Below, one piece after another: positions 3,116 to 36,829 of a DNA stretch of 40,517 nucleotides. Positions within the stretch are counted from its first letter, which is position 1. The number at the start of each line of letters is the position of its first letter. Origin of the DNA: Nemertoderma westbladi. Lineage: Eukaryota > Animalia > Xenacoelomorpha. Made by a program: the position numbers and the translations under genes. Location of the stretch: contig JAUCBJ010002231.1 of NCBI GenBank assembly GCA_032718475.1, forward strand, positions 1-40,517, in the 5' to 3' direction. Below the pieces are notes generated by a model. The model was not told the origin of the DNA. It worked only from the letters and a program-made list of their open reading frames with translations, and made no database searches.

Positions 3116-3348
3116 TTTTTTACAAGTGTTGAAAAGTATCTTAAACTAATTGGTAATATTGTTTAAAAAATGTATAAATGTTGATAATAATTTAACAAAC
3201 TAATTGCAGCTATTAAACTAGATATGAACCTTGTAATTCCGGTAAAATTCCGGCCGGAATTGACCACATTCCGGCAATTCCGGCCGGAACCGGAATCGGG
3301 CAAAAACCGCCGGAATTCCGGCCGGAACGGAATTCCGGGACATCCCTA

Positions 3349-3471
3349 CTGCTAACTAACTAACTGTGATTTACAGCTAATTAACTAACTGATTTACTGC
3401 TAACTAACTAACTGATTTACTGCTAACTAACTAACTGTGATTTACTGATAACTAACTAACTGTGATTTACT
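3349..3471. repeat. 25-bp minisatellite, segment 2 (between hAT and retrotransposon)
   Basis: Same unit as 1025-1780. Confidence 0.95.
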
Positions 3472-3645
3472 TTAGGTATTGCACCACGTAGTTGGTGTAA
3501 ATTTATTTACTAGCTAATAAATAGAACAAATTCACATAGTTGAAAATTATTACAAGAACAAAAATTATTTATAGAGTTACACCAAAAAAAAAAAAAAAAT
3601 CATTAACATCAGTTTCTTCGCGGTCTTGTCTGCACTCGTTGTGGT

Positions 3646-6225: not shown

Positions 6226-7851
6226 GGTGTGTGGCCGTGGTGGAAGACCGACTGGGTTTCTGTAAGAGGAGAGCTGGCAATATCATCACTGCCGTGAGGG
6301 CGACCTCATGTAGGGGATTGTCACTGATTGCCAGCGCCAACAACCGAGAAATCTCTGCCACCAATTCTCTACCCACGGCCCCCTGAGGAACCAGGAATAG
6401 GTTTGGCCTCCAGTGTACTATGCTGTTGTACACTGTGTTGATTGACTCTATTATTTGGTGCCTGGGCAAGGATTCATTGAACCATACCGCGGAGTCGACT
6501 CGACTTGTTGAAGTGAGTCCAACACTGGACAGGGAGGATGGCAGAGGTCGACCGATAGATGCCGAGGGTGCCAACTGGACTGGTGGGGGACCTGGCTGGA
6601 TCGCTGGGGGACCCGACCGGACTGAAGGGGGACCCGACTGGTCTGAAGGGGGACCCGACTGGACTGCTGGGGGACCCGACTGGACTCCTGAGGGACCCGA
6701 CTGGTCTGATGGGGGACCTGACTGGACTGCTGGGGGACCCGACTGGACTCCTGAGGGACCCGACTGGTCTGAAGGGGGACCCAACTGGACTGCTGGGGGA
6801 CCCGACTGGACTGATGGGGGACCCGACTGGTCTGAAGGGGGACCCGACTGGACTGCTGGGGGACCCGACTGGACTCCTGAGGGACCCGACTGGTCTGATG
6901 GGGGACCCGACTGGTCTGAAGGGGGACCCGACTGGACTGCTGGGGGACCCGACTGGACTCCTGAGGGACCCGACTGGTCTGATGGGGGACCCGACTGGAC
7001 TGCTGGGGGACCCGACTGGACTCCTGAGGGACCCGACTGGTCTGAAGGGGGACCCGACTGGACTGCTGGGGGACCCGACTGGACTCCTGAGGGACCCGAC
7101 TGGTCTGATGGGGGACCCAACTGATCTGCTGGGGGACCCGACTGGACTGATGGGGGACCCGACTGGGACTGCTGGGCGATCCGACTGGACTGGACATATG
7201 GGGGACCCGACTGGACTGATGGGGGACCCGACTGGACTGCTGGGCGCACCGACTGGACTGATGAGGGACCCAACTGGACTGATGGGGGACCCGACTGGAC
7301 TGCTGGGCGCACCGACTGGACTGCAGGGGGACCCGACTGGACTGAAGGGGGACCAGACTGGACTGCTGAGGGAACGGACTGGACTGCTCGGGGATCTGAA
7401 AAGTTCGGGGTCTGAAGTATAACGTCTTTAACTGCTGACCCCAAAGCAGACCCTTAACGGGGCTCCGAATCCTAGATATGATGGCACTGGCCCTCGCTCG
7501 TGCTGCGCCCGGAGACCAAACTGGAGAGTTAAATGATGCTGACGCACTGGCAGCTAGCGGATTATCCTGGACGATCGGGGATCCACCCAGTATAGTTTCG
7601 TCCTGATCCATCAATGTATCGTCCGCTGGACTTTCCAAAGCAGCGCAAGAGTTAAGCGGCTGTGAGACTGACGGCTGGGAGAACGAAGGTCGTTCGTGGC
7701 GATCCGGTAGAGGTTGAGAGGAAGGGTGCTGGCTGTTCTCGCAATTACCGTTTCTTCCTGGGGCACACGATAAGCACCGCAAGCTATTCCTGACGCATAT
7801 ACATTTCTTGCAGCGCCCGGACCGTCCATTGCAGCCACAACAAGCTGCCAT
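6185..7851 (-). pseudogene. Retrotransposon polyprotein N-terminal part, split over two frames
   Basis: ATG 7851 gives MAACCGCNGRSGRCKKCICVRNSLRCLSCAPGRNGNCEN (frame open to 6451); a second frame open 7453-6185 carries VHWRPNLFLVPQGAVGRELVAEISRL...ILPALLLQKP, which resembles the pre-RT region of CRE-like elements. Two frameshifts are needed to make one ORF. Confidence 0.7.
6570..7390 (-). repeat. 21-bp GC-rich coding tandem repeat within the retrotransposon (~39 units)
   Basis: Plus-strand unit GGGGGACCCGACTGGACTGCT and variants; translates on the minus strand as (VQSGPPA/DQSGPPS/VQSGPSG)n or (QSSRVPH/Q)n. Confidence 0.95.
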
Positions 7852-8027
7852 CAAAACGCCGGCTGCAGTGACGCGTTCACTCGAATAGAGAGGCGACACA
7901 ATCAGAAATATATAATTTGGCGCCACAAAGTCTGACAGTTGTCAAGGCAGTAGTCAGTACAGCAGTACAGTTCAGGTAGTGTTCAGGAGGCAGTGCAGTG
8001 CAGTACGTACTCACACTCACAGTACGT

Positions 8028-9362
8028 ACTGTGATTTACTGCTAACTAACTAACTGTGAATTACTGCTAACTAACTAACTGTGATTTACTGCTAACTAAC
8101 TAACTGTGAATTACTGCTAACTAACTAACTGTGATTTACTGCTAACTAACTAACTGTGGTTTACTGCTAACTAACTAACTGTGATTTACTGCTAACTAAT
8201 TAACTGTGGTTTACTGCTAACTAACTAACTGTGGTTTACTGCTAACTAACTAACTAACTAACTGTGGTTTACTGCTAACTAACTAACTAACTAACTGTGA
8301 TTTACTGCTAACTAACTAACTGATTTACTGCTAACTAACTAACTAACTAACTGTGGTTTACTGCTAACTAACTAACTAACTAACTGTGATTTACTGCTAA
8401 CTAACTAACTGATTTACTGCTAACTAACTAACTGTGGTTTACTACTAACTAACTAACTGTGGTTTACTGCTAACTAACTAACTGTGATTTACTGCTAACT
8501 AACTAACTGTGATTTACTGCTAACTAACTAACTGTGATTTACTGATAACTAACTAACTGTGATTTACTGCTAACTAACTAACTGTGAATTACTGCTAACT
8601 AACTAACTGTGATTTACTGCTAACTAATTAACTGTGGTTTACTGCTAACTAACTAACTGTGGTTTACTGCTAACTAACTAGCTGTGATTTACTGCTAACT
8701 AACTAACTGTGATTTACTGCTAACTAACTAACTGTGATTTACAGCTAACTAATTAACTGTGGTTTACTGCTAACTAACTAACTGTGGTTTACTGCTAACT
8801 AACTAACTGTGGTTTACTGCTAACTAACTAACTGTGATTTACTGCTAACTAACTAACTGTGATTTACAGCTAACTAATTAACTGTGGTTTACTGCTAACT
8901 AACTAACTGTGGTTTACTGCTAACTAACTAACTGTGGTTTACTGCTAACTAACTAACTGTGATTTACTGCTAACTAACTAACTGTGATTTACTGCTAACT
9001 AACTAACTGTGATTTACAGCTAACTAATTAACTGTGGTTTACTGCTAACTAACTAACTGTGGTTTACTGCTAACTAACTAACTGTGGTTTACTGCTAACT
9101 AACTAACTGTGATTTACTGCTAACTAACTAACTGTGATTTACTGCTAACTAACTAACTGTGATTTACTGCTAACTAACTAACTGTGGTTTACTGCTAACT
9201 AACTAACTGTGGTTTACTGCTAACTAACTAACTGTGATTTACTGCTAACTAATTAACTGTGGTTTACTGCTAACTAACTAACTGTGGTTTACTGCTAACT
9301 AACTAACTGTGGTTTACTGCTAACTAACTAACTGTGATTTACTGCTAACTAACTAATTAACT
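8028..9362. repeat. 25-bp minisatellite, segment 3
   Basis: Same unit with TGTGGTTT / TGTGAATT variants. Confidence 0.97.
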
Positions 9363-9870
9363 ACACCCATTGATTTCAAATGGAACAGTAATGACTCCCA
9401 AAATCACATGCGACTGTCGACCTTTCGTTAAGGAGTTTGAATTTCGCGCTAAACCATATCCTATTGGTTAATATTTATTATGTCAATAATCAATAACCAA
9501 TTGGTTATAATCGATAATTAAGACATGTTCTAAGGTCTAAAAATTACGCAGTTTTCTGCAGTGATAATTAGAAAATAGTTAAGAATTATAGATATATTTA
9601 GTTATTTAAATATATTTATTCTATTAACTAATAATTTTATTAAATTAGTGGAATATTTAAATAGCTGTATCTCAAAAACTAAAAGTCGTACAGTGATGCA
9701 GATTTCACCATTAAAATCACCGTAAAATTATGTATTAGATAAAATTAAAAATAAAAAACGTCCAAATTTTACCCTTCTCGGTGACCCCCCCCCCCCCCCC
9801 CCCCCCCCCCTTTAATGTTAGTCCCGGTGTATCGATATTAGTAAGTTACTAAGTTTAGTGAGCCACTTAC

Positions 9871-10009
9871 CTTCACCTTCCTCTTCTTCCTCTTCTTCGT
9901 CGAACTGATAGAATCCGAGAGGAGAAATCTGAGTTCCAGCTGATATTCTCGCTATCTGAGCCCTAAGATAGTTAGTCTCGTTTCCAGGGAAGGGAGGGTA
10001 ACTGACAAC
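9871..10009 (-). CDS. RSPH4A: Radial spoke head protein 4/6 family, coding exon 6
   Basis: tttacag|GTTGTC...GGTGAAG|gtaagt; [46 protein letters not shown] matches the RSPH4A/6A conserved block [24 protein letters not shown]. Confidence 0.93.
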
Positions 10010-13000
10010 CTGTAAACAAAAAGGAAGGATAACTGACAACCTGTAAACAAAAGGGAAGGATAACTGACAACCTTTAAACAAAAGAGGAATATAACTGACA
10101 ACCTGTAAATAAAAGAGGAAGATAACTGACAACCTGTAAACAAAAGAGGAAGATAACTGACAACCTGTAAACAAAAGGGAAGGATTACTGACAACCTTTA
10201 AACAAAAGAGGAATATAACTGACAACCTGTAAATAAAAGAGGGAGATAACTGACAACCTGTAAACAAAAGAGGAAGATAACTGACAACCTGTAAACAAAA
10301 GGGAAGGATTACTGACAACCTTTAAACAAAAGATAAATATAACTGACAACCTGTAAATAAAAGAGGAAGATAACTGACAACCTGTAAACAAAAGAGGAAG
10401 ATAACTGACAACCTGTAAACAAAAGAGGAAGATAACTGACAACCTTTAAACAAAAGAGGAATATAACTGACAACCTGTAAACAAAAGGGAAGGATTACTG
10501 ACAACCTTTAAACAAAAGAGGAATATAACTGACCACCTGTAAATAAAAGAGGAAGATAACTGACAACCTGTAAACAAAAGAGGAAGATAACTGACAACCT
10601 GTAAACAAAAAGGAAGGATAACTGACAACCTTTAAACAAAAGAGGAATATAACTGACAACCTGTAAACTAAAGAGGAAGATAACTGACAACCTGTAAACA
10701 AAAGGAAAGGATAACTGACAACCTGTAAACAAAAGAGGAAGATAACTGACAACCTGTAAACAAAAGAGGAAGATAACTGACAACCTGTAAACAAAAGAGG
10801 AAGATAACTGACAACCTGTAAACCAAAGGGAAGGATAACTGACAACCTGTTAACAAAAGGGAAGGATAACTGACAACCTGTAAACAAAAGGGGAAGGATA
10901 ACTGATAACCTGTAAACAGAATGGAAGGATAACTGACAACTAACCTGTAAACAAAAGTGAAGGGTAACTGACAGCCTGTAAACAAGGGAAGGGTAACTGA
11001 CAAACTGTAAACAGAAGGGAAGGATAACTGACAACCTGTAAACCAAAGGGAAGGGTAAGTGATAACTTGTAAACAAAAAGGAAGGGTAACTGATAACTTG
11101 TACACAAAAGGGAAGGGTAACTAACAATCTGTAAACAAAAGGGAAGGGTAACTGACAAACTGTAAACAGAAGGGAAGGATAACTGACAACCTGTAAACCA
11201 AAGGGAAGGGTAAGTGATAACTTGTAAACAAAAAGGAAGGGTAACTGATAACTTGTACACAAAAGGGAAGGGTAACTGACAACCTGTAAACAGAAAGGAA
11301 GGGTAACTAACAACCTGTAAACAAAAGGGAAGGGTAACTGACAAACTGTAAACAGAAGGGAAGGATAACTGACAACCTGTAAACAGAAGGGAAGGGTAAC
11401 TAACAACCTGTAAACAAAAGGGAAGGGTAACTGACAACCTGTAAACAGAAAGGAAGGATAACTGACAACCTGTAAACCAAAGGGAAGGGTAAGTGATAAC
11501 TTGTAAACAAAAAGGAAGGGTAACTGATAACTTGTACACAAAAGGGAAGGGTAACTGACAACCTGTAAACAAAAATGAAGGGTAACTGATAACTTGTACA
11601 CAAAAGGGAAGGGTAACTGACAACCTGTAAACAGAAGGGAAGGGTAACTAACAACCTGTAAACAAAAAGGAAGGGTAACTGACAAACTGTAAACAGAAGG
11701 GAAGGATAACTGATAACCTGTAAACAAAAGGGGAGGGTAAGTGATAACTTGTAAACCAAAAGGGAAGGGTAACTGACAACCTGTAAACAAAAGGGAAGGT
11801 AACCGACAAACTGTAAACAGAAGGGAAGGATAACTGATAACCTGTAAACAAAAGGGGAGGGTAACTGATAACTTGTACACAAAAGGGAAGGGTAACTGAC
11901 AACCTGTAAACAAAAGGGAAGGTAACCGACAAACTGTAAACAGAAGGGAAGGATAACTGACAACTAACCTGTAAACAAAAGTGAAGGGTAACTGACAGCC
12001 TGTAAACAAGGGAAGGGTAACTGACAAACTGTAAACAGAAGGGAAGGATAACTGACAACCTGTAAACCAAAGGGAAGGGTAAGTGATAACTTGTAAACAA
12101 AAAGGAAGGGTAACTGATAACTTGTACACAAAAGGGAAGGGTAACTAACAATCTGTAAACAAAAGGGAAGGGTAACTGACAAACTGTAAACAGAAGGGAA
12201 GGATAACTGACAACCTGTAAACAAAAGGGAAGGGTAACTGATAACTTGTAAACAAAAAGGAAGGGTAACTGATAACTTGTACACAAAAGGGAAGGGTAAC
12301 TGACAACCTGTAAACAAAAATGAAGGGTATCTGATAACTTGTACACAAAAGGGAAGGGTAACTGACAACCTGTAAACAAAAATGAAGGGTATCTGATAAC
12401 TTGTACACAAAAGGGAAGGGTAACTGACAACCTGTAAACAGAAGGGAAGGGTAACTAACAACCTGTAAACAAAAGGGAAGGGTAACTGACAAACTGTAAA
12501 CAGAAGGGAAAGATAACTGACAACCTGTAAACAGAAGGGAAGGGTAACTAACAACCTGTAAACAAAAGGGAAGGGTAACTGACAACCTGTAAACAGAAAG
12601 GAAGGATAACTGACAAACTGTAAACAAAAGGGAGGGATAACTGACAACCTGTAAACAGAAAGGAAGGGTAACTAACAACCTGTAAACAAAAGGGAAGGGT
12701 GACTGACAACCTGTAAACAGAAGGGAAGGGTAACTAACAACCTGTAAACAAAAGGGAAGGGTAACTGACAACCTGTAAACAAAAGGGAGGGATAACTGAC
12801 AAACTGTAAACAAAAGGGGAGGATAACTGAAAGCTTGTAAACAAAAAGGAAGGGTAACTGATAACTTGTAAACAAAAAGGAAGGGTAACTGATAACTTGT
12901 AAACAAAAAGGAAGGGTAACTGATAACTTGTACACAAAAGGGGAGGGTAAGTGATAACTTGTAAACAAAAAGGAAGGGTAACTGATAACTTGTACACAAA

Positions 13001-15912
13001 AGGGGAGGGTAAGTGATAACTTGTAAACCAAAAGGAAGGGTAACTGATAACTTGTAAACAAAAAGGAAGGGTAACTGATAACTTGTACACAAAAGGGGAG
13101 GGTAAGTGATAACTTGTAAACAAAAAGGAAGGGTAACTGATAACTTGTAAACCAAAAGGAAGGGTAACTGATAACTTGTAAACCAAAAGGAAGGGTAACT
13201 GATAACTTGTAAACAAAAAGGAAGGGTAACTGATAACTTGTACACAAAAGGGGAGGGTAAGTGATAACTTGTAAACAAAAAGGAAGGGTAACTGATAACT
13301 TGTACACAAAAGGGGAGGGTAAGTGATAACTTGTAAACCAAAAGGAAGGGTAACTGATAACTTGTAAACAAAAAGGAAGGGTAACTGATAACTTGTACAC
13401 AAAAGGGGAGGGTAAGTGATAACTTGTAAACAAAAAGGAAGGGTAACTGATAACTTGTACACAAAAGGGGAGGGTAAGTGATAACTTGTAAACCAAAAGG
13501 AAGGGTAACTGATAACTTGTAAACAAAAAGGAAGGGTAACTGACAACCTGTAAACAGAAGGGAAGGATAACTGACAACCTGTAAACCAAAGGGAAGGGTA
13601 ACTGATAACTTGTAAACAAAAAGGAAGGGTAACTGATAACTTGTAAACAAAAAGGAAGGGTAACTGATAACTTGTACACAAAAGGGGAGGGTAAGTGATA
13701 ACTTGTAAACCAAAAGGAAGGGTAACTGATAACTTGTAAACAAAAAGGAAGGGTAACTGATAACCTGTAAACAGAAGGGAAGGGTAACTGATAACTTGTA
13801 CACAAAAGGGAAGGGTAACTGATAACTTGTACACAAAAGGGAAGGGTAACTGATAACTTGTAAACAAAAAGGAAGGGTAACTGATAACTTGTAAACAAAA
13901 AGGAAGGGTAACTGATAACTTGTACACAAAAGGGAAGGGTAACTGATAACTTGTAAACAAAAAGGAAGGGTAACTGATAACTTGTAAACAAAAAGGAAGG
14001 GTAACTGATAACTTGTACACAAAAGGGGAGGGTAAGTGATAACTTGTAAACCAAAAGGAAGGGTAACTGATAACTTGTAAACAAAAAGGAAGGGTAACTG
14101 ATAACTTGTACACAAAAGGGGAGGGTAAGTGATAACTTGTAAACAAAAAGGAAGGGTAACTGATAACTTGTACACAAAAGGGGAGGGTAAGTGATAACTT
14201 GTAAACCAAAAGAAAGGGTAACTGATAACTTGTAAACAAAAAGGAAGGGTAACTGACAACCTGTAAACAGAAGGGAAGGATAACTGACAACCTGTAAACC
14301 AAAGGGAAGGGTAACTGATAACTTGTAAACAAAAAGGAAGGGTAACTGATAACTTGTAAACAAAAAGGAAGGGTAACTGATAACTTGTACACAAAAGGGG
14401 AGGGTAAGTGATAACTTGTAAACCAAAAGGAAGGGTAACTGATAACTTGTAAACAAAAAGGAAGGGTAACTGATAACCTGTAAACAGAAGGGAAGGGTAA
14501 CTGATAACTTGTACACAAAAGGGAAGGGTAACTGACAACCTGTAAACAGAAGGGAAGGGTAACTAACAACCTGTAAACAAAAGGGAAGGGTAACTGATAA
14601 CTTGTACACAAAAGGGAAGGGTAACTGATACCTTGTACACAAAAGGGAAGGGTGACTGACAACCTGTAAACAGAAAGGAAGGGTAACTAACAACCTGTAA
14701 ACAAAAGGGAAGGGTGACTGACAACCTGTAAACAGAAGGGAAGGATAACTAACAACCTGTACACAAAAGGGAAGGGTAACTGACAACCTGTAAACAGAAG
14801 GGAAGGGTAACTAACAACCTGTAAACAAAAGGGAAGGGTAACTGATAACTTCTACACAAAAGGGAAGGGTAACTGATACCTTGTACACAAAAGGGAAGGG
14901 TGACTGACAACCTGTAAACAGAAAGGAAGGGTAACTAACAACCTGTAAACAAAAGGGAAGGGTGACTGACAACCTGTAAACAGAAGGGAAGGATAACTAA
15001 CAATCTGTAAACAAAAGGGAAGGATAACTGACAACCTGCAAACAAGGGAAGGGTAACTGATAACTTGTACACAAAAGGGAAGGGTAACTGATAACTTGTA
15101 CACAAAAGGGAGGGAAAACTGACAACCTGTAAACAAAAGGCGAGGGTAACTAATAACTTGTAAACAAGGGAAGGGTAACTGATAACTTGTACACAAAAGG
15201 GAAGGGTAACTGATAACTTGTACACAAAAGGGAAGGGTGTCTGACAACCTGTAAACAGAAAGGAAGGGTAACTAACAACCTGTAAACAAAAGGGAAGGGT
15301 AACTGACAACGTGTAAACAAAAGGGAAGGATAACTGACAACCTGTAAACAAAAGGGAATGATAACTGACAACCTGTAAACAAAAAGGGAGGGAAAACTGA
15401 CAACCTGTAAACAAAAGGCGAGGGTAACTAATAACTTGTAAACAAAAGGGAAGGGTAATTGACAAACTGTAAACAGAAGGGAAGGATAACTGACAACCTG
15501 TAAACAAAAGGGAAGGGTAACTGATAACTTGTAAACAAAAAGGAAGGGTAACTGATAACTTGTAAACAAAAGGGAAGAATAACTGACAACCTGTAAAAGG
15601 AATGGAAGGATAACTGATAATCTGTAAACAAAAGGGAAGGGTAACTGACAACCTGTAAACAGAAGGGAAGGATAACTGACAACCTGTAAACAAAAGGGAA
15701 GGGTAACTGACAATCTGTAAACAAAAGGGAAGGATAACTGACAAACTGTAAACAAAAGGGAGGGATAACTGACAACCTGTAAACAAAAGGGAGGGATAAC
15801 TGGCAACCTGTACACAAAAAGGAAGGGTAACTGACAACCTGTAAACAAAAGGGAGGGATACTTGACAACCTGTAAACAAAAAGGAAGGGTAACTGATAAC
15901 TTGTAAACAAAG
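9989..15912 (-). repeat. 31-bp minisatellite (~190 units) made of the intron 5 / exon 6 acceptor junction
   Basis: Sense unit TTTTGTTTACAG|GTTGTCAGTTA(C/T)CCTTCCC; the terminal unit is the real acceptor plus the first ~20 nt of exon 6. Confidence 0.96.
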
Positions 15913-15990
15913 GTAAGTGCTGTAGAAGGTAGGTGTTGTAGATGGTGGTATTCGCCACTATGCATTTATATACATCCAGTTTATACTAAC

Positions 15991-16248
15991 CAAAGCGTCA
16001 AGTCGTCCCGTAAAGTATTTCTTTATTAGCCTGGCGCTTGCAATCTGTTCTGGTGTAACTGGCGGCAGTTTAACCCATTCTTTGCCGGGTTCGTTACAAA
16101 CAAAGTAACTCTTCCTATTGGCCCCGGAACCCTTTTCTTCCTTGAGGATCACAGGGGGAGGTTTGTAAGTCGACTTGGGGAGCTCATCTTCTTCGCCTTC
16201 GTCGTCGGCGTCTTCGGGGTTCTCGTCTTCTTCTTTATCTTCATCTCC
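15991..16248 (-). CDS. RSPH4A: Radial spoke head protein 4/6 family, coding exon 5
   Basis: ttttcag|GGA...GCTTTG|gttagt, 258 nt, phase 0/0; [86 protein letters not shown]. Confidence 0.93.
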
Positions 16249-16269
16249 CTGAAAATAATAGCGTTGTAT

Positions 16270-16555
16270 CAGGGTTCCGGAGTCCTGATAAAATCGGAGG
16301 ACTCAGATTATTTTGGTTTATGAGATAAAATGTTAAATCGACTGACATGGAATCAGGAATGTTAAGTCAGTGAGTATGTAAGTCTGAAGGCAGGGTAAAT
16401 CGGATGACCGAAACAACAATACTGTACAGCTGTAAAGTACACTGAAGCATCATCAATAGTTAAAGTTACTGAAAGACAAACATGACTACATAATAACGCT
16501 AAATTTTGGAATCAGAGTCCAGAGGATTTTTTAGGATTCCGACTCCGGAACCCTG
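16270..16555. mobile_element. MITE with hAT-like CAGGG termini (286 bp)
   Basis: Perfect 15-bp TIRs CAGGGTTCCGGAGTC / GACTCCGGAACCCTG with imperfect extension (GGACTCAGATT / AATCAGAGTCC). No clean 8-bp TSD, so superfamily is tentative. Confidence 0.75.
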
Positions 16556-16644
16556 GTTGGAGTTGTAGAGACTAAGTTAATGCTGAAACAACTACCCCCT
16601 GTCCACCCCCTGCCGTTACAACTCCTCATTTCCACCCTGCAGTT

Positions 16645-19600
16645 ACAGCTCCACCTTACAGATACAGCTCCCAACTCCACCTTACAGATACAGCTCCCAG
16701 CTCTACCTTACAGATACAGCTCCCAGCTCCTCCTTACAGATACAGCTCCCAGCTCCACCTTACAGATACAGCCCCCAGCTCCAACTTACAGATACAGCCC
16801 CCAGCTCCACCTTACAGATACAGCTTCCAGCTCCACCTTACAGATACAGCTCCCAACTCCACCTTACAGATACAGCTTCCAGCTCCACCTTACAGATACA
16901 GCTCCCAGCTCCAACTTACAGATACAGCTCCCAGCTCCAACTTACAGATACAGCCCCCAGCTCCACCTTACAGATACAGCTTCCAGCTCCACCTTACAGA
17001 TACAGCTCCCAACTCCACCTTACAGATACAGCTCCCAGCTCCAACTTACAGATACAGCTCCCAGCTCCACCTTACAGATACAGCTCCCAGCTCCACCTTA
17101 CAGATACAGCTCCCAGCTCCACCTTACAGATACAGCCCCCAGCTCCACCTTACAGATACAGCTCCCAGCTCCTCCTTACAGATACAGGTCCCAGCTCCTC
17201 CTTACAGATACAGCTCCCAGCACCTCCTTACAGATACAGCTCCCAGCTCCACCTTACAGATACAGCTTCTAGCTCCACCTTACAGATACAGCTTCCAGCT
17301 CTATCTTACAGATACACAGCTCCACCTTACAGATACAGCTCCCAGCTCCACCTTACAGATACGCAGCTCCCAGCTCCACCTTACAGATACAGCTTCCAGC
17401 TCCACCTTACAGATACAGCTCCCAGCTCCACCTTACAGATACAGCCCCCAGCTCCACCTTACAGATACAGCTCCCAGCTCCACCTTACAGATACACAGCT
17501 CCCAGCTCCACCTTACAGATACAGCTTCCAGCTCCACCTTACAGATACAGCTCCCAGCTCCACCTTACAGATACAGCTCCCAGCTCCACCTTACAGATAC
17601 AGCTTCCAGCTCCACCTTACAGATACAGCTCCCAACTCCACCTTACAGATACAGCTCCCAGCTCCACTTTACAGATACAGCTCCCAGCTCCACCTTACAG
17701 ATACAGCTCCCAGCTCCTCCTTACAGATACAGCTCCCAGCTCCTCCTTACAGATACAGCTCCCAGCTCCACCTTACAGATACAGCTTCCAGCTCCACCTT
17801 ACAGATACAGCTCCCAACTCCACCTTACAGATACGGCTCCCAGCTCCACTTTACAGATACAGCTCCCAGCTCCACCTTACAGATACAGCTCCCAGCTCCT
17901 CCTTACAGATACAGCTTCCAGCTCCACCTTACAGATACAGCTCCCAGCTCCACCTTACAGATACAGCTCCCAGCTCCACCTTACAGATACACAGCTCCCA
18001 GCTCCTCCTTACAGATACAGCTCCCAGCTCCACCTTACAGATACAGCTTCCAGCTCCACCTTACAGATACAGCTCCCAACTCCACCTTACATTACAGCTC
18101 CCAGCTCCACTTTACTGATACAGCTCCCAGCCCCACCTTACAGATACAGCTCCCAACTCCACCTTACAGATACAGCTCCCAGCTCCTTCTTACAGATACA
18201 GCTTCCAGCTCCACCTTACAGATACAGCTTCCAGCTCCACCTTACAGATACAGCTCCCAACTCCACCTTACATTACAGCTCCCAGCTCCACTTTACTGAT
18301 ACAGCTCCCAGCCCCACCTTACAGATACAGCTCCCAACTCCACCTTACAGATACAGCTCCCAGCTCCTTCTTACAGATACAGCTCCCAGCTCCACCTTAC
18401 AGATACAGCTTCCAGCTCCACCTTACAGATACAGCTCCCAACTCCACCTTACATTACAGCTCCCAGCTCCACTTTACTGATACAGCTCCCAGCCCCACCT
18501 TACATATACAGCTCCCAACTCCACCTTACAGATACAGCTCCCAGCTCCTTCTTACAGATACAGCTCCCAGCTCCACCTTACAGATACACAGCTCCCAGCT
18601 CCACATTACAGATACAGCTCCCAGCTCCACCTTACAGATACAGCTTCCAGCTCCACCTTACAGATACAGCTCCCAACTCCACCTTACATTACAGCTCCCA
18701 GCTCCACTTTACTGATACAGCTCCCAGCCCCACCTTACAGATACAGCTCCCAACTCCACCTTACAGATACAGCTCCCAGCTCCTTCTTACAGATACAGCT
18801 TCCAGCTCCACCTTGCAGATACAGCTTCCAGCTCCACCTTACAGATACAGCTCCCAGCTCCACCTTACAGATACACAGCTCCCAGCTCCACCTTACAGAT
18901 ACAGCTTCCAGCTCCACCTTACAGATACAGCTCCCAGCTTCACCTTACAGATACAGCTCCCAGCTCCACCTTACTGATACAGCTCCCAGCTCCACCTCAC
19001 AGATACAGCTTCCAGCTCCACATTACAGATACAGCTCCCAACTCCACCTTACAGATACAGCTCCCAGCTCCACATTACAGATACAGCTCCCAACTCCACC
19101 TTACAGATACAGCTTCCAGCTCCACCTTACAGATACAGCTCCCACCTCCACCTTACAGATACAGCTCCCAGCTCCACCTTACAGATACAGCTCCCAACTC
19201 CACCTTACAGATACAGCTCCCCGCTCCTCCTTACAGATACAGCTTCCAGCTCCACCTTACAGATACAGCTCCCAGCTCCACCTTACAGATACAGCTCCCA
19301 ACTCCACCTTACAGATACAGCTCCCAACTCCACCTTACAGATACACAGCTCCCAGCTCCACCTCACAGATACAGCTCCCAGCTCCACCTTACAGATACAG
19401 CTCCCAACTCCACCTTACAGATACAGCTCCCAGCTCCCAGCTCCACCTTACAGATACAGCTCCCATGCTCCACCTTACAGATACAGCTTCCAGCTCCACC
19501 TTACAGATACAGCTCCCAGCTCCACCGTACAGATACACAGCTCCCAGCTCCACCTTACAGATACAGCTCCCAGCTCCCAGCTCCACCTTACAGATACAGC

Positions 19601-20355
19601 TCCACCTTACAGATACAGCTCCCAGCACCACCTTACAGATACAGCTCGCAGCTCCAACTTACAGATACAGCCCCCAGCTCCACCTTACAGATACAGCTCC
19701 CAGCTCCTCCTAACAGATACAGCTCCCAGCTCCTCCTTACAGATACAGCTCCCAGCTCTACCTTACAGATACAGCTTCCAGCTCCACCTTACAGATACAG
19801 CTTCCAGCTCCACCTTACAGATACAGCTCCCAGCTCCACCTTACAGATACACAGCTCCCAGCTCCACCTTACAGATACAGCTTCCAGCTCCACCTTACAG
19901 ATACAGCTCCCAGCTCCACCTTACAGATACAGCTCCCAGCTCCTCCTTACAGATACAGCCCCCAGCTCTTCCTTACAGATACACAGCTCCCATCTCCTCC
20001 TTACAGATACAGCTCCCAGCTCCACCTTACAGATACTGCTTCCAACTCCACCTTACAGATACAGCTCCCAGCTCCACCTTACAGATACAGCTCCCAGCTC
20101 CTCCTTACAGATACAGCCCCCAGCTCTTCCTTACAGATACAGCTTCCAGCTCCACCTTACAGATGCAGCTCCCAGCTCCACCTTACAGATACAGCTCCCA
20201 GCTCCTCCTTACAGATACAGCCCCCAGCTCTTCCTTACAGATATAGCTCCCAGCTCCTCCTTACAGATACAGCTCCCAGCTCCACCTTACAGATACAGCT
20301 CCCAGCTCCTCCTTACAGATACAGCTCCCAGCTCCACCTTACAGATACAGCTCCC
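16645..20355. repeat. 26-bp minisatellite (CCTTACAGATACAGCTCCCAGCTCCA)n, ~140 units, filling RSPH intron 4
   Basis: Directly visible; begins ~23 nt inside the exon 4 donor and does not overlap the exon. Confidence 0.97.
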
Positions 20356-20378: not shown

Positions 20379-20526
20379 TTGTTCCTCGTCATCCTCCTCT
20401 TCTTCCCCCTCCCTGTATTCCACTTCCGCTATGACGTAATTTTTCTCCAATCCCAATATTTTGCCCCAGAATCGCACTGTCTGTAGGGGATGAGTGTCCG
20501 CTAAAGTCTTTAATGCAAAATAAATC
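20379..20526 (-). CDS. RSPH4A: Radial spoke head protein 4/6 family, coding exon 4
   Basis: ttttcag|G...GAACAA|gtgagt, 148 nt; (R)[49 protein letters not shown], with the family motif [13 protein letters not shown]. Not in the ORF track. Confidence 0.93.
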
Positions 20527-20542
20527 CTGAAAAGTAGACACA

Positions 20543-21160
20543 ATTATTATTATTATATTATTTAATCCGGACAGGCGTCCATAAATCAATCATTACTAGG
20601 GGAAGTATAATACAATCAATAAAACAATCAACAAATACTGCATAATATTAATTAACATAATATATAACAGCCGTGCAATTTATAAATTATTATTTAACAT
20701 TTATGCAAAATACGTGAGATCGGCCTGCAAGTACGGAATACAGCTTGCACCACGGAAATAGAAGGAGAAAGACTCTATTAGACTTATTTTATCCTTATGT
20801 ACGATATGACAAAATATCGGAATGTTGAGTAGGCCACCCGAAGTTTGTTGAAAACAATATTGGAGTAGTTGAGGGTGGACCACAAGATACAACAATAAAC
20901 CGATGTGCAATAGGCACGGAAAAGGCAGACTTTAATATTTAAAGAAGCACTACTAAATTTCCTAATAATAGTGTTCGCCCTAGCATACAGAGAGTGGGTT
21001 TGTTTAGTAATATTATCATCATCATCATCGGTAGACGAACGTAGTATATGGCCTAAGTATAAAAATCTATCAACAATGGGTATATCTGCACCATAAATAT
21101 GAATTGTTGTAGAAAGATACAATCTTCTGGAAGATCTTATTTTCATATTTCCAAAACGAC
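20543..21160 (-). mobile_element. 5'-truncated LINE fragment (CR1/L2-group, post-RT C-terminus and 3' UTR)
   Basis: ORF 20784-21164 contains FLYLGHIL...DDDNITKQTHSLYARANTIIRKFSSASLNIKVCLFRAYCTSVYCCILW...NKLRVAY, typical of L2/CR1-group ORF2 ends; 3' end TATGGAC..GTCCGGATTAAA followed by a (TAA)n tail. Confidence 0.75.
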
Positions 21161-21244
21161 TCAAATTATTATCTTGTAAAATATTAGATTACGACACACA
21201 GTACGAAAATTGTATTCAAAAATGTAAACTGTATTTTTCTGACA

Positions 21245-24200
21245 TCCCGTATAGTTTAACTTTATCTCCCTACCTGTAGGTTTCCTCCCATATAGAATAA
21301 CTTTTTATCCCTACCTATACGTTTCCTCCCATATCGTATAACTTTATATCCCTATCTGTAGGTTACCTCCCGTATAGTTTAACTTTATGTCCCTACCTGT
21401 AGATTACCTCACGTATGCCGTATAATTTAACTTTATATTCCTACCTATACGTTTCATCCCGTATAGTATAACTTTATATCCCTACCTATAGGTTACCTCC
21501 CGTATAATTTATCTTTATGTCCCTACCTGTAGGTTACCTCCCTATAGTTTAACTTCATGTCCCTACCTATAATAGGTTACCTCCCGTATAATTTAACTTT
21601 ATATCCCTACCTATACGTTTCCTCCCATGTCGTATAACTTTATATATCCCTATCTGTAGGTTACCTCCCGTATAGTTTAACTTTATATCCCTCCCTACCC
21701 ACTGTATACGTTTCCTCCCATATATTATATCTTTATATCCATATCTGTAGGTTACATCCCGTATAGTTTAACTTTATGTCCCTACCTTTAGGTTTCCTCC
21801 GATATAGCATAACTTTATATTCCTACCTATACGTTTCCTCCCGAACAGTTTAACTTTATGTCCCTACCTGTAGGCCACCTCCCATATAATTTAACTTTAT
21901 ATTCCTACCTATACGTTTCCTCCCGTACAGTTTAACTTTATGTCCCTACCTGTAGGCCACCTCCCGTATAATTTAACTTTATATTCCTACCTATACGTTT
22001 CCTCCCGTACAGTTTAACGTTATGTCCCTACCTGTAGGCCACCTCCCGTATAATTTAACTTTATATTCCTACCTATACGTTTCCTCCCGTACAGTTTAAC
22101 TTTATGTCCCTACCTGTAGGCCACCTCCCATATAATTTAACTTTATATTCCTACCTATACGTTTCCTCCCGTACAGTTTAACTTTATGTCCCTACCTGTA
22201 GGCCACCTCCCGTATAATTTAACTTTATATTCCTACCTATACGTTTCCTCCCGTACAGTTTAACTTTATGTCCCTACCTGTAGGCCACCTCCCATATAAT
22301 TTAACTTTATATTCCTACCTATACGTTTCCTCCCGTACAGTTTAACTTTATGTCCCTACCTGTAGGCCACCTCCCATATAATTTAACTTTATATTCCTAC
22401 CTATACGTTTCCTCCCGTACAGTTTAACGTTATGTCCCTACCTGTAGGCCACCTCCAGTATAATTTAACTTTATATTCCTACCTATACGTTTCCTCCCGT
22501 ACAGTTTAACTTTATGTCCCTACCTATAATAGGTTACCTCCCGTATAATTTAACTTTATATTCCTACCTATACGTTTCCTCCCATATCGTATAACTTTAA
22601 ATATCCCTATCTGTAGGTTACCTCCCGTACAGTTTAACTTTATGTCCCTACCTGTAGGCCACCTCCAGTATAATTTAACTTTATATTCCTACCTATACGT
22701 TTCCTCCCGTACAGTTTAACTTTATGTCCCTACCTGTAGGCCACCTCCAGTATAATTTAACTTTATATTCCTACCTATACGTTTCCTCCCGTACAGTTTA
22801 ACTTTATGTCCCTACCTGTAGGCCACCTCCCGTATAATTTAACTTTATATTCCTACCTATACGTTTCCTCCCGTACAGTTTAACTTTATGTCCCTACCTG
22901 TAGGCCACCTCCCATATAATTTAACTTTATATTCCTACCTATACGTTTCCTCCCGTACAGTTTAACGTTATGTCCCTACCTGTAGGCCACCTCCCGTATA
23001 ATTTAACTTTATATTCCTACCTATACGTTTCCTCCCGTACAGTTTAACTTTATGTCCCTACCTATAATAGGTTACCTCCCGTATAATTTAACTTTATATT
23101 CCTACCTATACGTTTCCTCCCATATCGTATAACTTTAAATATCCCTATCTGTAGGTTACCTCCCGTACAGTTTAACTTTATGTCCCTACCTGTAGGCCAC
23201 CTCCAGTATAATTTAACTTTATATTCCTACCTATACGTTTCCTCCCGTACAGTTTAACTTTATGTCCCTACCTGTAGGCCACCTCCCATATAATTTAACT
23301 TTATATTCCTACCTATACGTTTCCTCCCGTACAGTTTAACTTTATGTCCCTACCTGTAGGCCACCTCCAGTATAATTTAACTTTATATTCCTACCTATAC
23401 GTTTCCTCCCGTACAGTTTAACTTTATGTCCCTACCTGTAGGCCACCTCCCATATAATTTAACTTTATATTCCTACCTATACGTTTCCTCCCGTACAGTT
23501 TAACTTTATGTCCCTACCTGTAGGCCACCTCCAGTATAATTTAACTTTATATTCCTACCTATACGTTTCCTCCCGTACAGTTTAACTTTATGTCCCTACC
23601 TATAATAGGTTACCTCCCGTATAATTTAACTTTATATTCCTACCTATACGTTTCCTCCCATATCGTATAACTTTAAATATCCCTATCTGTAGGTTACCTC
23701 CCGTACAGTTTAACTTTATGTCCCTACCTGTAGGCCACCTCCCATATAATTTAACTTTATATTCCTACCTATACGTTTCCTCCCGTACAGTTTAACTTTA
23801 TGTCCCTACCTGTAGGCCACCTCCCGTATAATTTAACTTTATATTCCTACCTATACGTTTCCTCCCGTACAGTTTAACTTTATGTCCCTACCTGTAGGCC
23901 ACCTCCAGTATAATTTAACTTTATATTCCTACCTATACGTTTCCTCCCGTACAGTTTAACTTTATGTCCCTACCTGTAGGCCACCTCCCGTATAATTTAA
24001 CTTTATATTCCTACCTATACGTTTCCTCCCGTACAGTTTAACTTTATGTCCCTACCTGTAGGCCACCTCCCATATAATTTAACTTTATATTCCTACCTAT
24101 ACGTTTCCTCCCGTACAGTTTAACTTTATGTCCCTACCTGTAGGCCACCTCCCATATAATTTAACTTTATATTCCTACCTATACGTTTCCTCCCGTACAG

Positions 24201-26981
24201 TTTAACTTTATGTCCCTACCTGTAGGCCACCTCCCGTATAATTTAACTTTATATTCCTACCTATACGTTTCCTCCCGTACAGTTTAACTTTATGTCCCTA
24301 CCTGTAGGCCACCTCCCGTATAATTTAACTTTATATTCCTACCTATACGTTTCCTCCCGTACAGTTTAACTTTATGTCCCTACCTGTAGGCCACCTCCCG
24401 TATAATTTAACTTTATATTCCTACCTATACGTTTCCTCCCGTACAGTTTAACTTTATGTCCCTACCTGTAGGCCACCTCCCATATAATTTAACTTTATAT
24501 TCCTACCTATACGTTACCTCCCGTACAGTTTAACGTTATGTCCCTACCTGTAGGCCACCTCCCGTATAATTTAACTTTATATTCCTACCTATACGTTTCC
24601 TCCCGTACAGTTTAACTTTATGTCCCTACCTGTAGGCCACCTCCCGTATAATTTAACTTTATATTCCTACCTATACGTTTCCTCCCGTACAGTTTAACTT
24701 TATGTCCCTACCTGTAGGCCACCTCCCATATAATTTAACTTTATATTCCTACCTATACGTTTCCTCCCGTACAGTTTAACTTTATGTCCCTACCTGTAGG
24801 CCACCTCCCATATAGTTTAACTTTATATTCCTACCTATACGTTACCTCCCGTACAGTTTAACGTTATGTCCCTACCTGTAGGCCACCTCCCATATAATTT
24901 AACTTTATATTCCTACCTATACGTTTCCTCCCGTACAGTTTAACGTTATGTCCCTACCTGTAGGCCACCTCCCGTATAATTTAACTTTATATTCCTACCT
25001 ATACGTTTCCTCCCGTACAGTTTAACTTTATGTCCCTACCTGTAGGCCACCTCCCGTATAATTTAACTTTATATTCCTACCTATACATTTCCTCCCATAC
25101 CGTATAACTTTAAATATCCCTATCTGTAGGTTACCTCCCGTACAGTTTAACTTTATGTCCCTACCTGTAGGCCACCTCCCATATAGTTTAACTTTATATT
25201 CCTACCTATACGTTTCCTCCCGTACAGTTTAACTTTATGTCCCTACCTGTAGGCCACCTCCCGTATAATTTAACTTTATATTCCTACCTATACGTTTCCT
25301 CCCGTACAGTTTAACTTTATGTCCCTACCTGTAGGCCACCTCCCATATAGTTTAACTTTATATTCCTACCTATACGTTTCCTCCCGTACAGTTTAACTTT
25401 ATGTCCCTACCTGTAGGCCACCTCCCATATAGTTTAACTTTATATTCCTACCTATACGTTTCCTCCCGTACAGTTTAACTTTATGTCCCTACCTGTAGGC
25501 CACCTCCCGTATAATTTAACTTTATATTCCTACCTATACGTTTCCTCCCGTACAGTTTAACTTTATGTCCCTACCTGTAGGCCACCTCCCGTATAATTTA
25601 ACTTTATGTCCCTACCTGTAGGCCACCTCCCATATAGTTTAACTTTATGTCCCTATCTATAGGCTTCCTCCCGTATAGTTTAACTTTATGTCCCTACCTG
25701 TAGGCCACCTCCCGTATAATTTAACTTTATATTCCTACCTATACGTTTCCTCCCGTACAGTTTAACTTTATGTCCCTACCTGTAGGCCACCTCCCGTATA
25801 ATTTAACTTTATATTCCTACCTATACGTTTCCTCCCGTACAGTTTAACTTTATGTCCCTACCTGTAGGCCACCTCCAGTATAATTTAACTTTATATTCCT
25901 ACCTATACGTTTCCTCCCGTACAGTTTAACTTTATGTCCCTACCTGTAGGCCACCTCCCGTATAATTTAACTTTATATTCCTACCTATACGTTTCCTCCC
26001 GTACAGTTTAACTTTATGTCCCTACCTGTAGGCCACCTCCCATATAATTTAACTTTATATTCCTACCTATACGTTACCTCCCGTACAGTTTAACGTTATG
26101 TCCCTACCTGTAGGCCACCTCCCGTATAATTTAACTTTATATTCCTACCTATACGTTTCCTCCCGTACAGTTTAACTTTATGTCCCTACCTGTAGGCCAC
26201 CTCCCGTATAATTTAACTTTATGTCCCTACCTGTAGGCCACCTCCCATATAGTTTAACTTTATGTCCCTATCTATAGGCTTCCTCCCGTATAGTTTAACT
26301 TTATGTCCCTACCTGTAGGCCACCTCCCATATAATTTAACTTTATATTCCTACCTATACGTTTCCTCCCGTACAGTTTAACTTTATGTCCCTACCTGTAG
26401 GCCACCTCCCATATAGTTTAACTTTATATTCCTACCTATACGTTTCCTCCCGTACAGTTTAACTTTATGTCCCTACCTGTAGGCCACCTCCCGTATAATT
26501 TAACTTTATATTCCTACCTATACGTTTCCTCCCGTACAGTTTAACTTTATGTCCCTACCTGTAGGCCACCTCCCATATAATTTAACTTTATATTCCTACC
26601 TATACGTTTCCTCCCGTACAGTTTAACTTTATGTCCCTACCTGTAGGCCACCTCCCGTATAATTTAACTTTATATTCCTACCTATACGTTTCCTCCCGTA
26701 CAATTTAACTTTATGTCCCTACCTGTAGGCCACCTCCCGTATAATTTAACTTTATATTCCTACCTATACGTTTCCTCCCGTACAGTTTAACTTTATGTCC
26801 CTACCTGTAGGCACCTCCTGTATAATTTAACTTTATGTCCCTACCTGTAGGCCACCTCCCATATAGTTTAACTTTATGTCCCTATCTATAGGCTTCCTCC
26901 CATATAGTTTAACTTTATGTCCCTATCTATAGGCTTCCTCCCGTATAGTTTAACTTTATGTCCCTACCTGTAGGTTTCCTC
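21245..26981 (-). repeat. 41-bp minisatellite (~140 monomers, mostly as an 82-bp dimer) made of the exon 3 / intron 3 donor junction
   Basis: Terminal unit 26941-26981 = last 14 nt of exon 3 (GAGGAAACCTACAG) + first 27 nt of intron (gtagggacataaagttaaactatacgg); array alternates ...GTGGCCTACAG|GTAGGGAC... and ...AAACGTATAG|GTAGGAAT... monomers. Confidence 0.96.
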
Positions 26982-27131
26982 AGTACTAATCGACATCCCA
27001 GCGGACTGGAAATGCGACCCCAGTTCGATAATATTGGGCACCGGTGATTGGGCGTCATCATCATCCATAGCAACGTCCATTTCCTCGTCAGTCGCTTTGA
27101 ATAGAGTTGTTTCGAGCTCAGCGTTGGCGAT
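26968..27131 (-). CDS. RSPH4A: Radial spoke head protein 4/6 family, coding exon 3
   Basis: tttataaag|ATC...ACCTACAG|gtaggg, 164 nt; IANAELETTLFKATDEEMDVAMDDDDAQSPVPNIIELGSHFQSAGMSISTEETY(R); phases join exons 2 and 4. Confidence 0.88.
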
Positions 27132-27339
27132 CTTTATAAACAAATAAATTAAACCAATAAATTATTTTATAGCTCTCACGGGATGCAAATGTGATTTATA
27201 TATTTTTTATTATAAGTAATTACTTACTATTCTATTCAAATTCAATAAATAAATAATTCAACCTTTTTTTAAATAAATTAATAATTATATACGATTTTTC
27301 GACTTGTTAATAAATTATTGTTATAAAATAACAACTTAC

Positions 27340-27493
27340 CTCATTGGGTTTCTCTGGTCTATCGTAGATATAGTCTTCACTGGCCTTCGCCCTCTCCTTT
27401 TTAACATTCTTACTAAGTTCCTCGAAGTAGTCGACTATATTTCCCGGCCTTTTACTTAGTATGTTAGACAATAACTCTGCGAGGTGGTCGTAT
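27340..27493 (-). CDS. RSPH4A: Radial spoke head protein 4/6 family, coding exon 2
   Basis: atttaag|A...AATGAG|gtaagt, 154 nt; (L)YDHLAELLSNILSKRPGNIVDYFEELSKNVKKERAKASEDYIYDRPEKPNE, matching LYDHL...IL..RP.N.VD.FE..S..VK. Confidence 0.92.
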
Positions 27494-27953
27494 CTTAAAT
27501 AGTAAATAGATGCGTATTCACTAAGTTTGTTGGCTATTAACTATTAATTTATTACAAATTGTCTACATGGCGAAAGCACATTCATATCATAAGGAATTTA
27601 AGGCAGTTGTTGGGGCACGTCACGCAAACGCTATGTATCTTTTTCATAGCAACAATGCCACTTTAATGTTTGTTGAGAAGAAAACGTACCTACAACTCTT
27701 TGAGGTGGTCTTACCTAAAATATCAGAAACGTATTTATTTATCACTTATATTTGCTATTTAAATACATAGCGATTTCTCTATTTCAAGAAACACCGGTTT
27801 AGATTCACCCCTTGGAGTCGTTTAAAGTGACCGGGTTTAAAGGTCACACCTTGGTGTAGTGATTAAATCCGTTGCAAACTTTGTGCGTTATCAATCCCTG
27901 GCGTAATGGCTGAAGAAAACTCTACTTTACTTAAAGAGGTGTACAAAACTTAC

Positions 27954-28129
27954 AGGTTTAGGCCGGATTGCGTGCTCGATTGTAGCATAAACGCTTTGGC
28001 GTCCTGGTACTTCTGTTCGCTGACATTAACCAGTCCATTGGTCGCATTGTCCCCCACTGCTGGAACAACAGGCGAACCGGCATCGGCTGCAGCCTCAGGC
28101 ACAACGTCTGGTTCCGCGGTCCCATTCAT
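27954..28129 (-). CDS. RSPH4A: Radial spoke head protein 4/6 family, coding exon 1
   Basis: ATG at 28129; MNGTAEPDVV...KYQDAKAFMLQSSTQSGLN(L), donor CT|gtaagt; matches AKAYLL..S..SG.NLYDHL across the junction. Confidence 0.88.

Positions 28130-34922: not shown

Positions 34923-36828
<1,906 letters not shown>

Positions 36829-36829
<1 letters not shown>

What the first reader, a model, noticed from the sequence alone, without database searches (positions are those of the whole stretch)
9989..15912. Intron 5 satellite is a ~190-fold tandem amplification of the gene's own 3' splice site
Seen: the 31-bp unit is the polypyrimidine/CAG acceptor (TTTTGTTTACAG) plus the first ~20 nt of exon 6 (GTTGTCAGTTACCCTCCCTT, VVSYPP). 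Only ~78 nt (15913-15990) of this 5981-nt intron is unique, implying an ancestral intron of about 90 nt. The functional acceptor is the last of the array, so many intact upstream decoys must be skipped. This mirrors the donor-derived array in intron 3, giving two independent junction-seeded expansions in one gene, both at AG|GT junctions.
Basis: partly seen in the sequence, partly recalled or inferred. Interest (0 to 1): 0.88.

Follow-up and report, generated by a model that had tools for sequence, protein, structure and literature searches.

The report
Large splice-acceptor "mirage" in RSPH4
In an animal's cilia gene, the end of one intron plus the first 20 bases of the next exon are repeated 191 times in a row, yet the one likely messenger-RNA contig seen joins only at the last, genuine copy, so this is likely a very large but tolerated example of a repeat type already known from lancelets and humans.

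Summary
Intron 5 (5,981 nt, minus strand) of a radial-spoke-head gene (RSPH4/6, PF04712) is 191 copies of a 31-bp unit matching its own acceptor plus 20 exon bases (29/31); 78 nt are unique. The copied exon bases encode a motif conserved across animals, so the array came from the gene. Two DNA samples hold the array, so it is not an assembly artefact. A spliced contig from one run (labelled DNA?, behaving as RNA) joins exon 5 to the last acceptor exactly. 106 of 190 upstream copies keep an in-register CAG; one is identical to the real site from -30 to +10 and is still skipped. Position, most likely exon definition across the 139-nt exon 6, therefore probably decides. Recursive splicing is possible at only 2 units; structural masking was not supported. 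The AG|GT link is not significant (chance about 0.11). This is a known kind, the amphioxus "mirage" (human: F7, ABCA7, CBS), and the scan has noted it on other DNA (68 notes, at least 10 genomes). What stands out is the size and three junction copies in one gene. Minor decoy use is untested.

The parts
9990..15911 (-). Intron-5 array: 191 units of 31 bp (about 11 nt intron end + 20 nt exon-6 start), the last being the real junction; variants fall in blocks (units 46-100 mostly CAAG type; units 162-190 all in-register AG)
   Evidence: unit-bearing contigs in DNA runs X1, X2, X3
15913..15990 (-). Unique 5' part of intron 5 (78 nt), donor TTG|GTTAGT (6/9 match to the U1 consensus)
   Evidence: X1 contig identical over 15882-16625
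9871..10009 (-). Exon 6 (139 nt, [11 protein letters not shown]...EEEGE); functional acceptor at 10009, donor AAG|GTAAGT (8/9), purine-rich 3' end
   Evidence: Pfam Radial_spoke positions 274-318; X4 contig joins 15991 to 10009
15991..16248 (-). Exon 5 (258 nt)
   Evidence: Pfam Radial_spoke 191-272; X4 contig spliced at both ends
10568..10628 (-). Decoy at 10598, identical to the real acceptor from -30 to +10; natural control, not used by the X4 contig
10102..10288 (-). The three upstream acceptors that are in frame and open into exon 6: 10102 (CAG, +31 aa), 10195 (AAG, +62 aa), 10288 (CAG, +93 aa)
11963..11971 (-). Unit reading CAG|GTTAGT (junction 11969|11968): acceptor and donor in one (8/9 U1 match); candidate ratchet point
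10939..10947 (-). Second CAG|GTTAGT unit (junction 10945|10944), part of the same higher-order duplication
21245..26981 (-). Intron-3 donor array: 138 units of about 41 nt (15 nt exon-3 end + 26 nt intron start), 127 with AG|GT
16646..20355 (-). Intron-4 array, 142 x 26 bp, starting about 24 nt after the donor; not derived from a junction
27694..27722 (-). Single degenerate copy of the exon-2 acceptor junction inside intron 1 (24/29 identical)
   Evidence: 1 of 1000 shuffles scored as high
20379..28129 (-). Exons 1-4 of the host gene (28129-27954, 27493-27340, 27131-26968, 20526-20379)
   Evidence: open 346-aa model, 54-56% identical to animal RSPH4/6; exon 4/5 join seen in X4, joins 1-4 by homology only

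Best explanation
The array is a minisatellite copied from the gene's own intron-5/exon-6 boundary that is likely selectively tolerated rather than functional, and the spliceosome likely picks the last copy because it defines exon 6 across the exon rather than scanning from the 5' end of the intron. Steps: (1, shown) the unit is the junction. (2, inferred) A 31-bp slippage duplication between pyrimidine-rich stretches either side of the junction, in an intron of roughly 90 nt, seeded it. (3, inferred from the block pattern) Unequal exchange and local homogenisation grew it to 191 units. (4, shown for the dominant contig) The mRNA joins 15991 to 10009 with no added base. (5, inferred) Each decoy has a pyrimidine tract and AG but only 20 nt of exon and no good donor behind it. 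U1 at the strong exon-6 donor and the purine-rich exon favour the nearest acceptor; only 11 decoys would give an exon under 500 nt. (6, inferred) Of the five nearest decoys, four shift the frame to a stop, so slips would mostly be degraded.
For: Junction identity and shuffle test. Direction gene to array: 114 of 120 homologues carry a motif of the [VI][VIM][STC][YF]PPF type here, and 112 of 120 have the same 25-aa FTG..NYLRA spacing as the 15991-10009 join (other 8: no motif match). X4's 1,854-nt contig (depth 1,159) covers exon 5 and exon 6 only; its loose ends are the neighbouring exons; record position 876 maps to both 15991 and 10010, so nothing is inserted; it was the only X4 contig laid on 9812-10075 and none lay on the units at 15850-15911. 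Local sequence cannot be the discriminator: decoy 10598 is identical from -30 to +10, 30 decoys are identical from -11 to +10, and 86 of 106 CAG decoys are at least as pyrimidine-rich. The decoys nearest the real site are intact, so they were not purged. The rule holds in mirror image for intron 3 (exon-proximal donor needed, by homology). An exon-centric proximity rule for long introns and a limit of about 500 nt are described in PMC9225289 (passages). Same outcome in amphioxus mirages (PMC3087553) and CBS 844ins68 (PMC7490669).
Against: Exon definition was not tested directly. There is one RNA-like data set, its RNA nature is inferred (label 'DNA?'), and contigs drop rare isoforms, so decoy use of a few per cent, or frameshifted products removed by decay, would be invisible. 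The end product cannot tell one-step from recursive removal. In PMC9225289 the 3' splice-site data show only a reduced upstream preference in long introns, not an absolute downstream rule, and they are human. At the two-copy stage (about 121 nt) intron definition would favour the upstream copy; the first unit is now CAAG type, which fits loss of that site, but so are 77 of 190 units. The ancestral intron was not seen.
Confidence: 0.72

Rival explanations
1. Recursive (ratchet) splicing: the intron is removed in steps, each acceptor copy regenerating a donor, ending at 10009.
For: Most CAG units are AG|GT. Two units (junctions 11969|11968 and 10945|10944) read CAG|GTTAGT and would regenerate exactly the authentic TTG|GTTAGT donor, cutting the intron into 4,022, 1,024 and 935 nt. 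The final mRNA would look the same.
Against: Of 112 in-register AG decoys, 110 regenerate a donor of 4/9 or worse, or no GT. The two good units are one 4-nt slippage event duplicated with its neighbours. Even then the last step must skip 30 units, so the model does not remove the need for exon definition.
Confidence: 0.08
2. Regulated or leaky use of decoys: the array tunes RSPH4 output through frameshift-and-decay, or adds 31-93 aa hydrophobic inserts.
For: Three upstream acceptors are in frame and open. In ABCA7, retention of one VNTR unit through a decoy donor is seen, and isoforms vary with length (PMC5954066, passages). This gene appears to use AAG acceptors at exons 2 and 3 (by homology), so the AAG decoys may be usable too.
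Against: No X4 contig contains array units. The insert would fall in a segment of invariant length in 112 of 112 matching homologues. Openness follows from a nearly stop-free unit, not from selection.
Confidence: 0.12
3. RNA structure hides the decoys, for example pairing of the 3'-block variant tail with the purine tract of exon 6.
For: A tail variant found only in units 165-187 (12 units) is a perfect 10-nt complement of exon 6 and pairs with it in the minimum-energy fold; the terminal acceptor is the most accessible of the 107 CAG sites (0.044 against a median of 0.005 over all upstream units).
Against: In the ensemble the tract of decoy 10102 is less paired with the variant (0.22) than with consensus tails (0.32), and the real site's tract is not better exposed (0.37). 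A 10-nt complement arises in 2 of 33 and 5 of 129 neighbouring variants, with about 24 tail variants present. Absolute accessibilities are all low.
Confidence: 0.05
4. Assembly artefact, or an unrelated widespread satellite that happens to resemble the exon.
For: No long reads or whole genome were available; no contig spans the array.
Against: 41, 42 and 67 contigs (mostly array units) laid from X1, X2 and X3, two samples of two studies; variants that occur only once or twice in the window appear in X2/X3; X1 has both array junctions; summed unit depth over single-copy depth is 150-240 in X1 (rough only). The unit encodes a conserved motif.
Confidence: 0.03

Closest known systems
Amphioxus 'mirage' minisatellites (Adh3, globins BflGb6/BflGb9, troponin C, PGBD5); PMC3087553 section 16 read, PMC3902484 passages; the original Adh3 paper (PMC117041) not held, cited second-hand
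   Same: Tandem copies of an intron-exon boundary of the host gene, at 5' or 3' boundaries; BflGb6 is the acceptor type; many units keep splice signals; normal mRNA is made; local homogenisation of units.
   Different: 191 units against 3-6 (BflGb6) and 2-7 (PGBD5); Adh3 copy numbers not seen. A different, unplaced animal lineage. Donor and acceptor arrays of over 130 units in one gene.
Human CBS c.844_845ins68 (PMC7490669, passages)
   Same: Duplication of intron end plus exon start including the 3' splice site; the extra copy is spliced out, so the downstream site is used.
   Different: One extra copy of 68 bp, not 190 of 31 bp; G-run silencers are invoked there (title of a cited paper only), and the units here have no such runs on the sense strand.
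Human F7 intron-7 37-bp VNTR (PMC1557585, abstract and Discussion) and ABCA7 intron-18 25-bp VNTR (PMC5954066, passages)
   Same: VNTR whose unit carries a splice site; the exon-proximal site dominates. ABCA7 reaches about 427 units, so the size is not unprecedented.
   Different: Donor side (they match the intron-3 array here). F7 has 5-9 units; the ABCA7 unit starts at the GT and carries no exon bases; ABCA7 shows some decoy use.
Dual-specific AGGT splice sites in tandem repeats, UBC type, and intron gain by duplication of AG|GT (PMC10809524, passages)
   Same: Repeat units with AG|GT.
   Different: Here the donor lies in unique sequence outside the array and the intron is not a multiple of the unit: an existing intron was inflated, not created.

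Membership tests
Mirage minisatellite | Head-to-tail minisatellite-sized units | tested here: met
   191 x 31 bp, 88% matches
Mirage minisatellite | Unit spans an exon-intron boundary of the host gene | tested here: met
   29/31 to the junction; 0 of 100,000 shuffles reach 18/20 on the exon part
Mirage minisatellite | Many but not all units keep the splice signal | tested here: met
   106 CAG, 6 AAG, 77 shifted AAG, 1 none, of 190
Mirage minisatellite | Normal splicing of the mRNA is kept | tested here: met
   Dominant X4 contig joins 15991 to 10009; minor isoforms not visible in contigs; RNA nature of X4 inferred
Mirage minisatellite | Concerted evolution within the cluster | tested here: met
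   Variants in blocks and higher-order duplications
Mirage minisatellite | Length instability between alleles or cells | not testable with these tools
   Short-read contigs break in the array; no long reads
Recursive splice sites | Acceptor followed by a donor regenerated after splicing | tested here: inconclusive
   2 of 112 in-register AG decoys regenerate the authentic donor; the rest 4/9 or worse
Recursive splice sites | Intermediate joins, lariats or saw-tooth coverage | not testable with these tools
   No raw or nascent RNA reads
Intron created by duplication of an AG|GT site (dual-specific type) | Both donor and acceptor come from the repeat unit; intron length a multiple of the unit | tested here: not met
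   Donor lies in 78 unique nt; 5,981/31 is not whole
RSPH4/6 radial spoke head (host gene) | Pfam Radial_spoke PF04712 above cut-off, collinear across the junction | tested here: met
   Exon 5 profile 191-272 (110.8 bits), exon 6 profile 274-318 (88.3 bits), cut-off 25.7

The most novel reading that the evidence does not exclude
The array has bred its own ratchet points: two units that acquired CAG|GTTAGT regenerate the authentic donor and let the 6-kb intron be removed in three steps, which would make this recursive splicing born inside a mirage. More broadly, three junction copies and three multi-kilobase arrays at or within about 25 nt of exon edges in one gene may reflect a mutational bias toward splice junctions in this genome.
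Probability: 0.1. Interest if true: 0.7.

Novelty: new member of a known kind. Interest (0 to 1): 0.3.

Why it matters
As a system it is known. Its value is as an extreme natural test of 3' splice-site choice: a 5'-to-3' first-AG rule fails by over a hundred sites, and decoy 10598 is a built-in control with the same local sequence as the real site. It also shows how a compact intron can grow about 65-fold (if the ancestral length was near 90 nt) from its own splice junction without changing the protein; arrays make up 15.4 of the 18.3 kb between exons 1 and 6. If allele lengths vary, the locus could show whether decoy number costs splicing fidelity.

Tried and rejected
No whole genome is held, so no genome-wide survey of the unit or of junction arrays. 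No RNA holder listed; the RNA nature of X4 comes from its contig alone. Runs X6 and X7 (other organisms) gave 0 contigs on exon 5 at 80% likeness: no information on the ancestral intron. X2 and X3 showed no exon-6 contig (a filter may drop some), so they give no single-copy baseline. X1's contig from exon 6 into the array differs from the window and steps back 62 nt; I did not read this as an allele, because such contig paths through repeats can be chimeric. Lineage: EF-G best hits 57-58% (fish), no hit for MRPL53; an animal by RSPH4 and EF-G hits, phylum unresolved. The frame and stop columns were one base off and were redone. Hairpin masking and template-switch origin of the 3'-block variant: not supported. 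AG|GT enrichment: not significant. Selective purging of decoys: the proximal 29 are intact and the CAAG units are one amplified variant, not independent events. Rfam: 0 matches. PMC10078293 (passages) and PMC2812944 (outline only) added nothing. No supplements were opened; BflGb6 Additional file 4 and the Adh3 paper could hold larger acceptor-side arrays.
Full report
Host gene. The window is eukaryotic; no whole genome is held. The minus strand carries six exons of a radial spoke head gene: 28129-27954, 27493-27340, 27131-26968, 20526-20379, 16248-15991 and 10009-9871, with introns of 460, 208, 6,441, 4,130 and 5,981 nt, all GT..AG, giving an open 346-aa model that is 54-56% identical to the three animal RSPH4/6 proteins aligned in full. 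Exons 5 and 6 match consecutive parts of Pfam Radial_spoke (191-272 and 274-318). The C-terminal part of about 200 aa is not in the window. The organism is an animal without close relatives in the protein collection (EF-G best hits 57-58%; no MRPL53 hit).

The array. Tandem Repeats Finder gives 9990-15911, period 31, 191 copies; my decomposition agrees. The consensus matches the real junction at 29/31 and the first 20 exon bases at 18/20; none of 100,000 shuffled units reaches 18. The exon bases encode VVSYPPF; 114 of 120 homologues have a motif of this type there (6 gave no pattern match), so the array came from the exon and not the reverse. Only 78 nt at the 5' end of the intron are unique, which suggests about 90 nt before expansion; this is an inference. 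The unit is found nowhere else in the window. Variants form blocks and higher-order duplications, as expected of unequal exchange.

Is it real? Five of eight listed runs hold the region. In DNA run X1 one contig is identical to 15882-16625, crossing from unique intron into the first unit, and another runs from exon 6 into the array. X1, X2 and X3 (two samples, two studies; one may be the assembly's source) gave 41, 42 and 67 contigs on 9812-10075, nearly all of those shown being array units, and X2/X3 carry variants that occur once or twice in the window. Summed unit depth over single-copy depth in X1 is 150-240; the tool warns this is no copy number, so I take it only as the right order. No record spans the array, so the length of 191 rests on the assembly.

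Which acceptor is used? Homology needs the last one: 112 of 120 homologues have exactly the spacing of the 15991-10009 join, and none has another. Run X4 is labelled 'DNA?' but behaves as RNA: a 1,854-nt contig of depth 1,159 lies on exon 5 and exon 6 only, its loose ends are exon 4 and exon 6 on one stretch and exon 5 on the other, and its coordinates leave no room for an inserted base. It was the only X4 contig on 9812-10075, and none lay on the units at 15850-15911. Contigs drop rare forms, so this fixes the dominant product only.

Why the last? Of 190 upstream units, 106 keep an in-register CAG, 6 an AAG, 77 have CAA with an AAG one base on, and 1 has no AG. The gene's own exons 2 and 3 seem to start after AAG (by homology), so the AAG copies cannot be called dead. 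The copied exon bases are pyrimidine-rich and supply each next unit with a tract: 86 of 106 CAG decoys are at least as pyrimidine-rich as the real site, and the decoy at 10598 is identical from -30 to +10. The 29 units nearest the real site all keep an in-register AG. So local sequence and purging do not explain the choice; position does. Exon 6 has a strong donor (8/9 U1 match, against 6/9 for exon 5) and a purine-rich end. Only 5 decoys would give an exon of 300 nt or less and 11 one of 500 nt or less; four of the five nearest shift the frame to a stop. PMC9225289 (passages) describes preference for the sites closest across the exon when introns are long, and poor inclusion of exons over about 500 nt; for 3' sites its effect is a reduced upstream preference, in human data. 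Exon definition is therefore the likeliest mechanism, inferred and not tested.

Rivals. Recursive splicing needs a regenerated donor; 110 of 112 in-register AG decoys give 4/9 or worse. Two units (11969|11968, 10945|10944) read CAG|GTTAGT and would regenerate the true donor; they descend from one event and remain a testable long shot. Three upstream acceptors are in frame and open (10102, 10195, 10288), but no contig uses them. A 3'-block variant complementary to exon 6 looked like a masking hairpin, but ensemble folding and enumeration of neighbouring variants did not support it.

The rest of the gene. Intron 3 holds 138 copies of the exon-3 end plus donor, 127 with AG|GT; its join was not seen in RNA, but homology needs the first copy. 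Intron 4 holds a 26-bp array unrelated to its junctions, starting about 24 nt after the donor. Intron 1 holds one degenerate copy of the exon-2 junction (24/29; 1 of 1000 shuffles). Both large junction arrays are at AG|GT, but 4 of 11 junctions are, so the chance is about 0.11, and the third copy comes from AAG|AT. In a 90-nt intron a random 31-bp duplication spans a junction half the time, so no targeting is needed for intron 5; the clustering of all arrays at exon edges is a post hoc hint only.

What is known. [quoted passage not shown] Human cases: CBS 844ins68 (acceptor, one copy; PMC7490669 passages), F7 (donor, 5-9 units; PMC1557585 abstract and Discussion) and ABCA7 (donor, up to about 427 units, some decoy use; PMC5954066 passages). 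In nine searches of the open library I saw no acceptor-side array this large, but the Adh3 paper was not held and most subscription papers are missing. The scan's notes hold 68 findings for 'mirage minisatellite acceptor copy' in at least 10 genomes; the largest acceptor array among the notes shown had about 100 copies (unchecked notes).

Verdict. Observation confirmed; a large new member of a known kind; interest 0.3.

Noticed in passing
window 27694-27722 (-): Single degenerate copy of the exon-2 acceptor junction in intron 1; it reads TAG|GTAAGA and is followed 25 nt later by AG|GTACGT, so it looks like a ratchet site or a small pseudo-exon.
   Followed up: partly
window 27494 and 27132 (-): By homology, exons 2 and 3 start after AAG rather than YAG (2 of 5 acceptors); not checked in RNA.
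   Followed up: partly
window 212-619 (+): 3' end of an RPA2 (RPA_C, E 4e-14) gene on the opposite strand; the missing RSPH4 C-terminal exons must lie left of the window, so this gene is likely nested in an RSPH4 intron.
   Followed up: partly
window 1025-9356: One 25-bp satellite array, likely split in three (1025-1782, 3347-3471, 8028-9356) by a 1.56-kb element with terminal inverted repeats (about 1782-3347) and a non-LTR retrotransposon-like element (about 3600-7950, minus strand; RVT_1 E 8e-5, below cut-off; CRE/SLACS-like by recall only).
   Followed up: partly
window 30009-32147 (+) and 32509-32868 (+): Intronless, GC-rich mitochondrial EF-G (57-58% to the best hits) and an intronless MRPL53, head to head with RSPH4.
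   Followed up: partly
window about 10110-10810 (-), units 165-187: Tail variant confined to the 3' block is a perfect 10-nt complement of the exon-6 Glu-codon tract; not significant against neighbouring variants.
   Followed up: yes
window 16412-16565: Part of intron 4 matches other contigs at 80-90% in X1 and X4: likely a dispersed repeat fragment.
   Followed up: no
window 34925-36829: 1.9-kb tetranucleotide array that switches unit in blocks (CTGA, CTGG, CTGA, CCGA, CTGA).
   Followed up: no
window 15910-15946: A 16-bp x2.3 repeat in the 'unique' part of intron 5 adds another CAG about 20 nt upstream of the first unit's acceptor.
   Followed up: no
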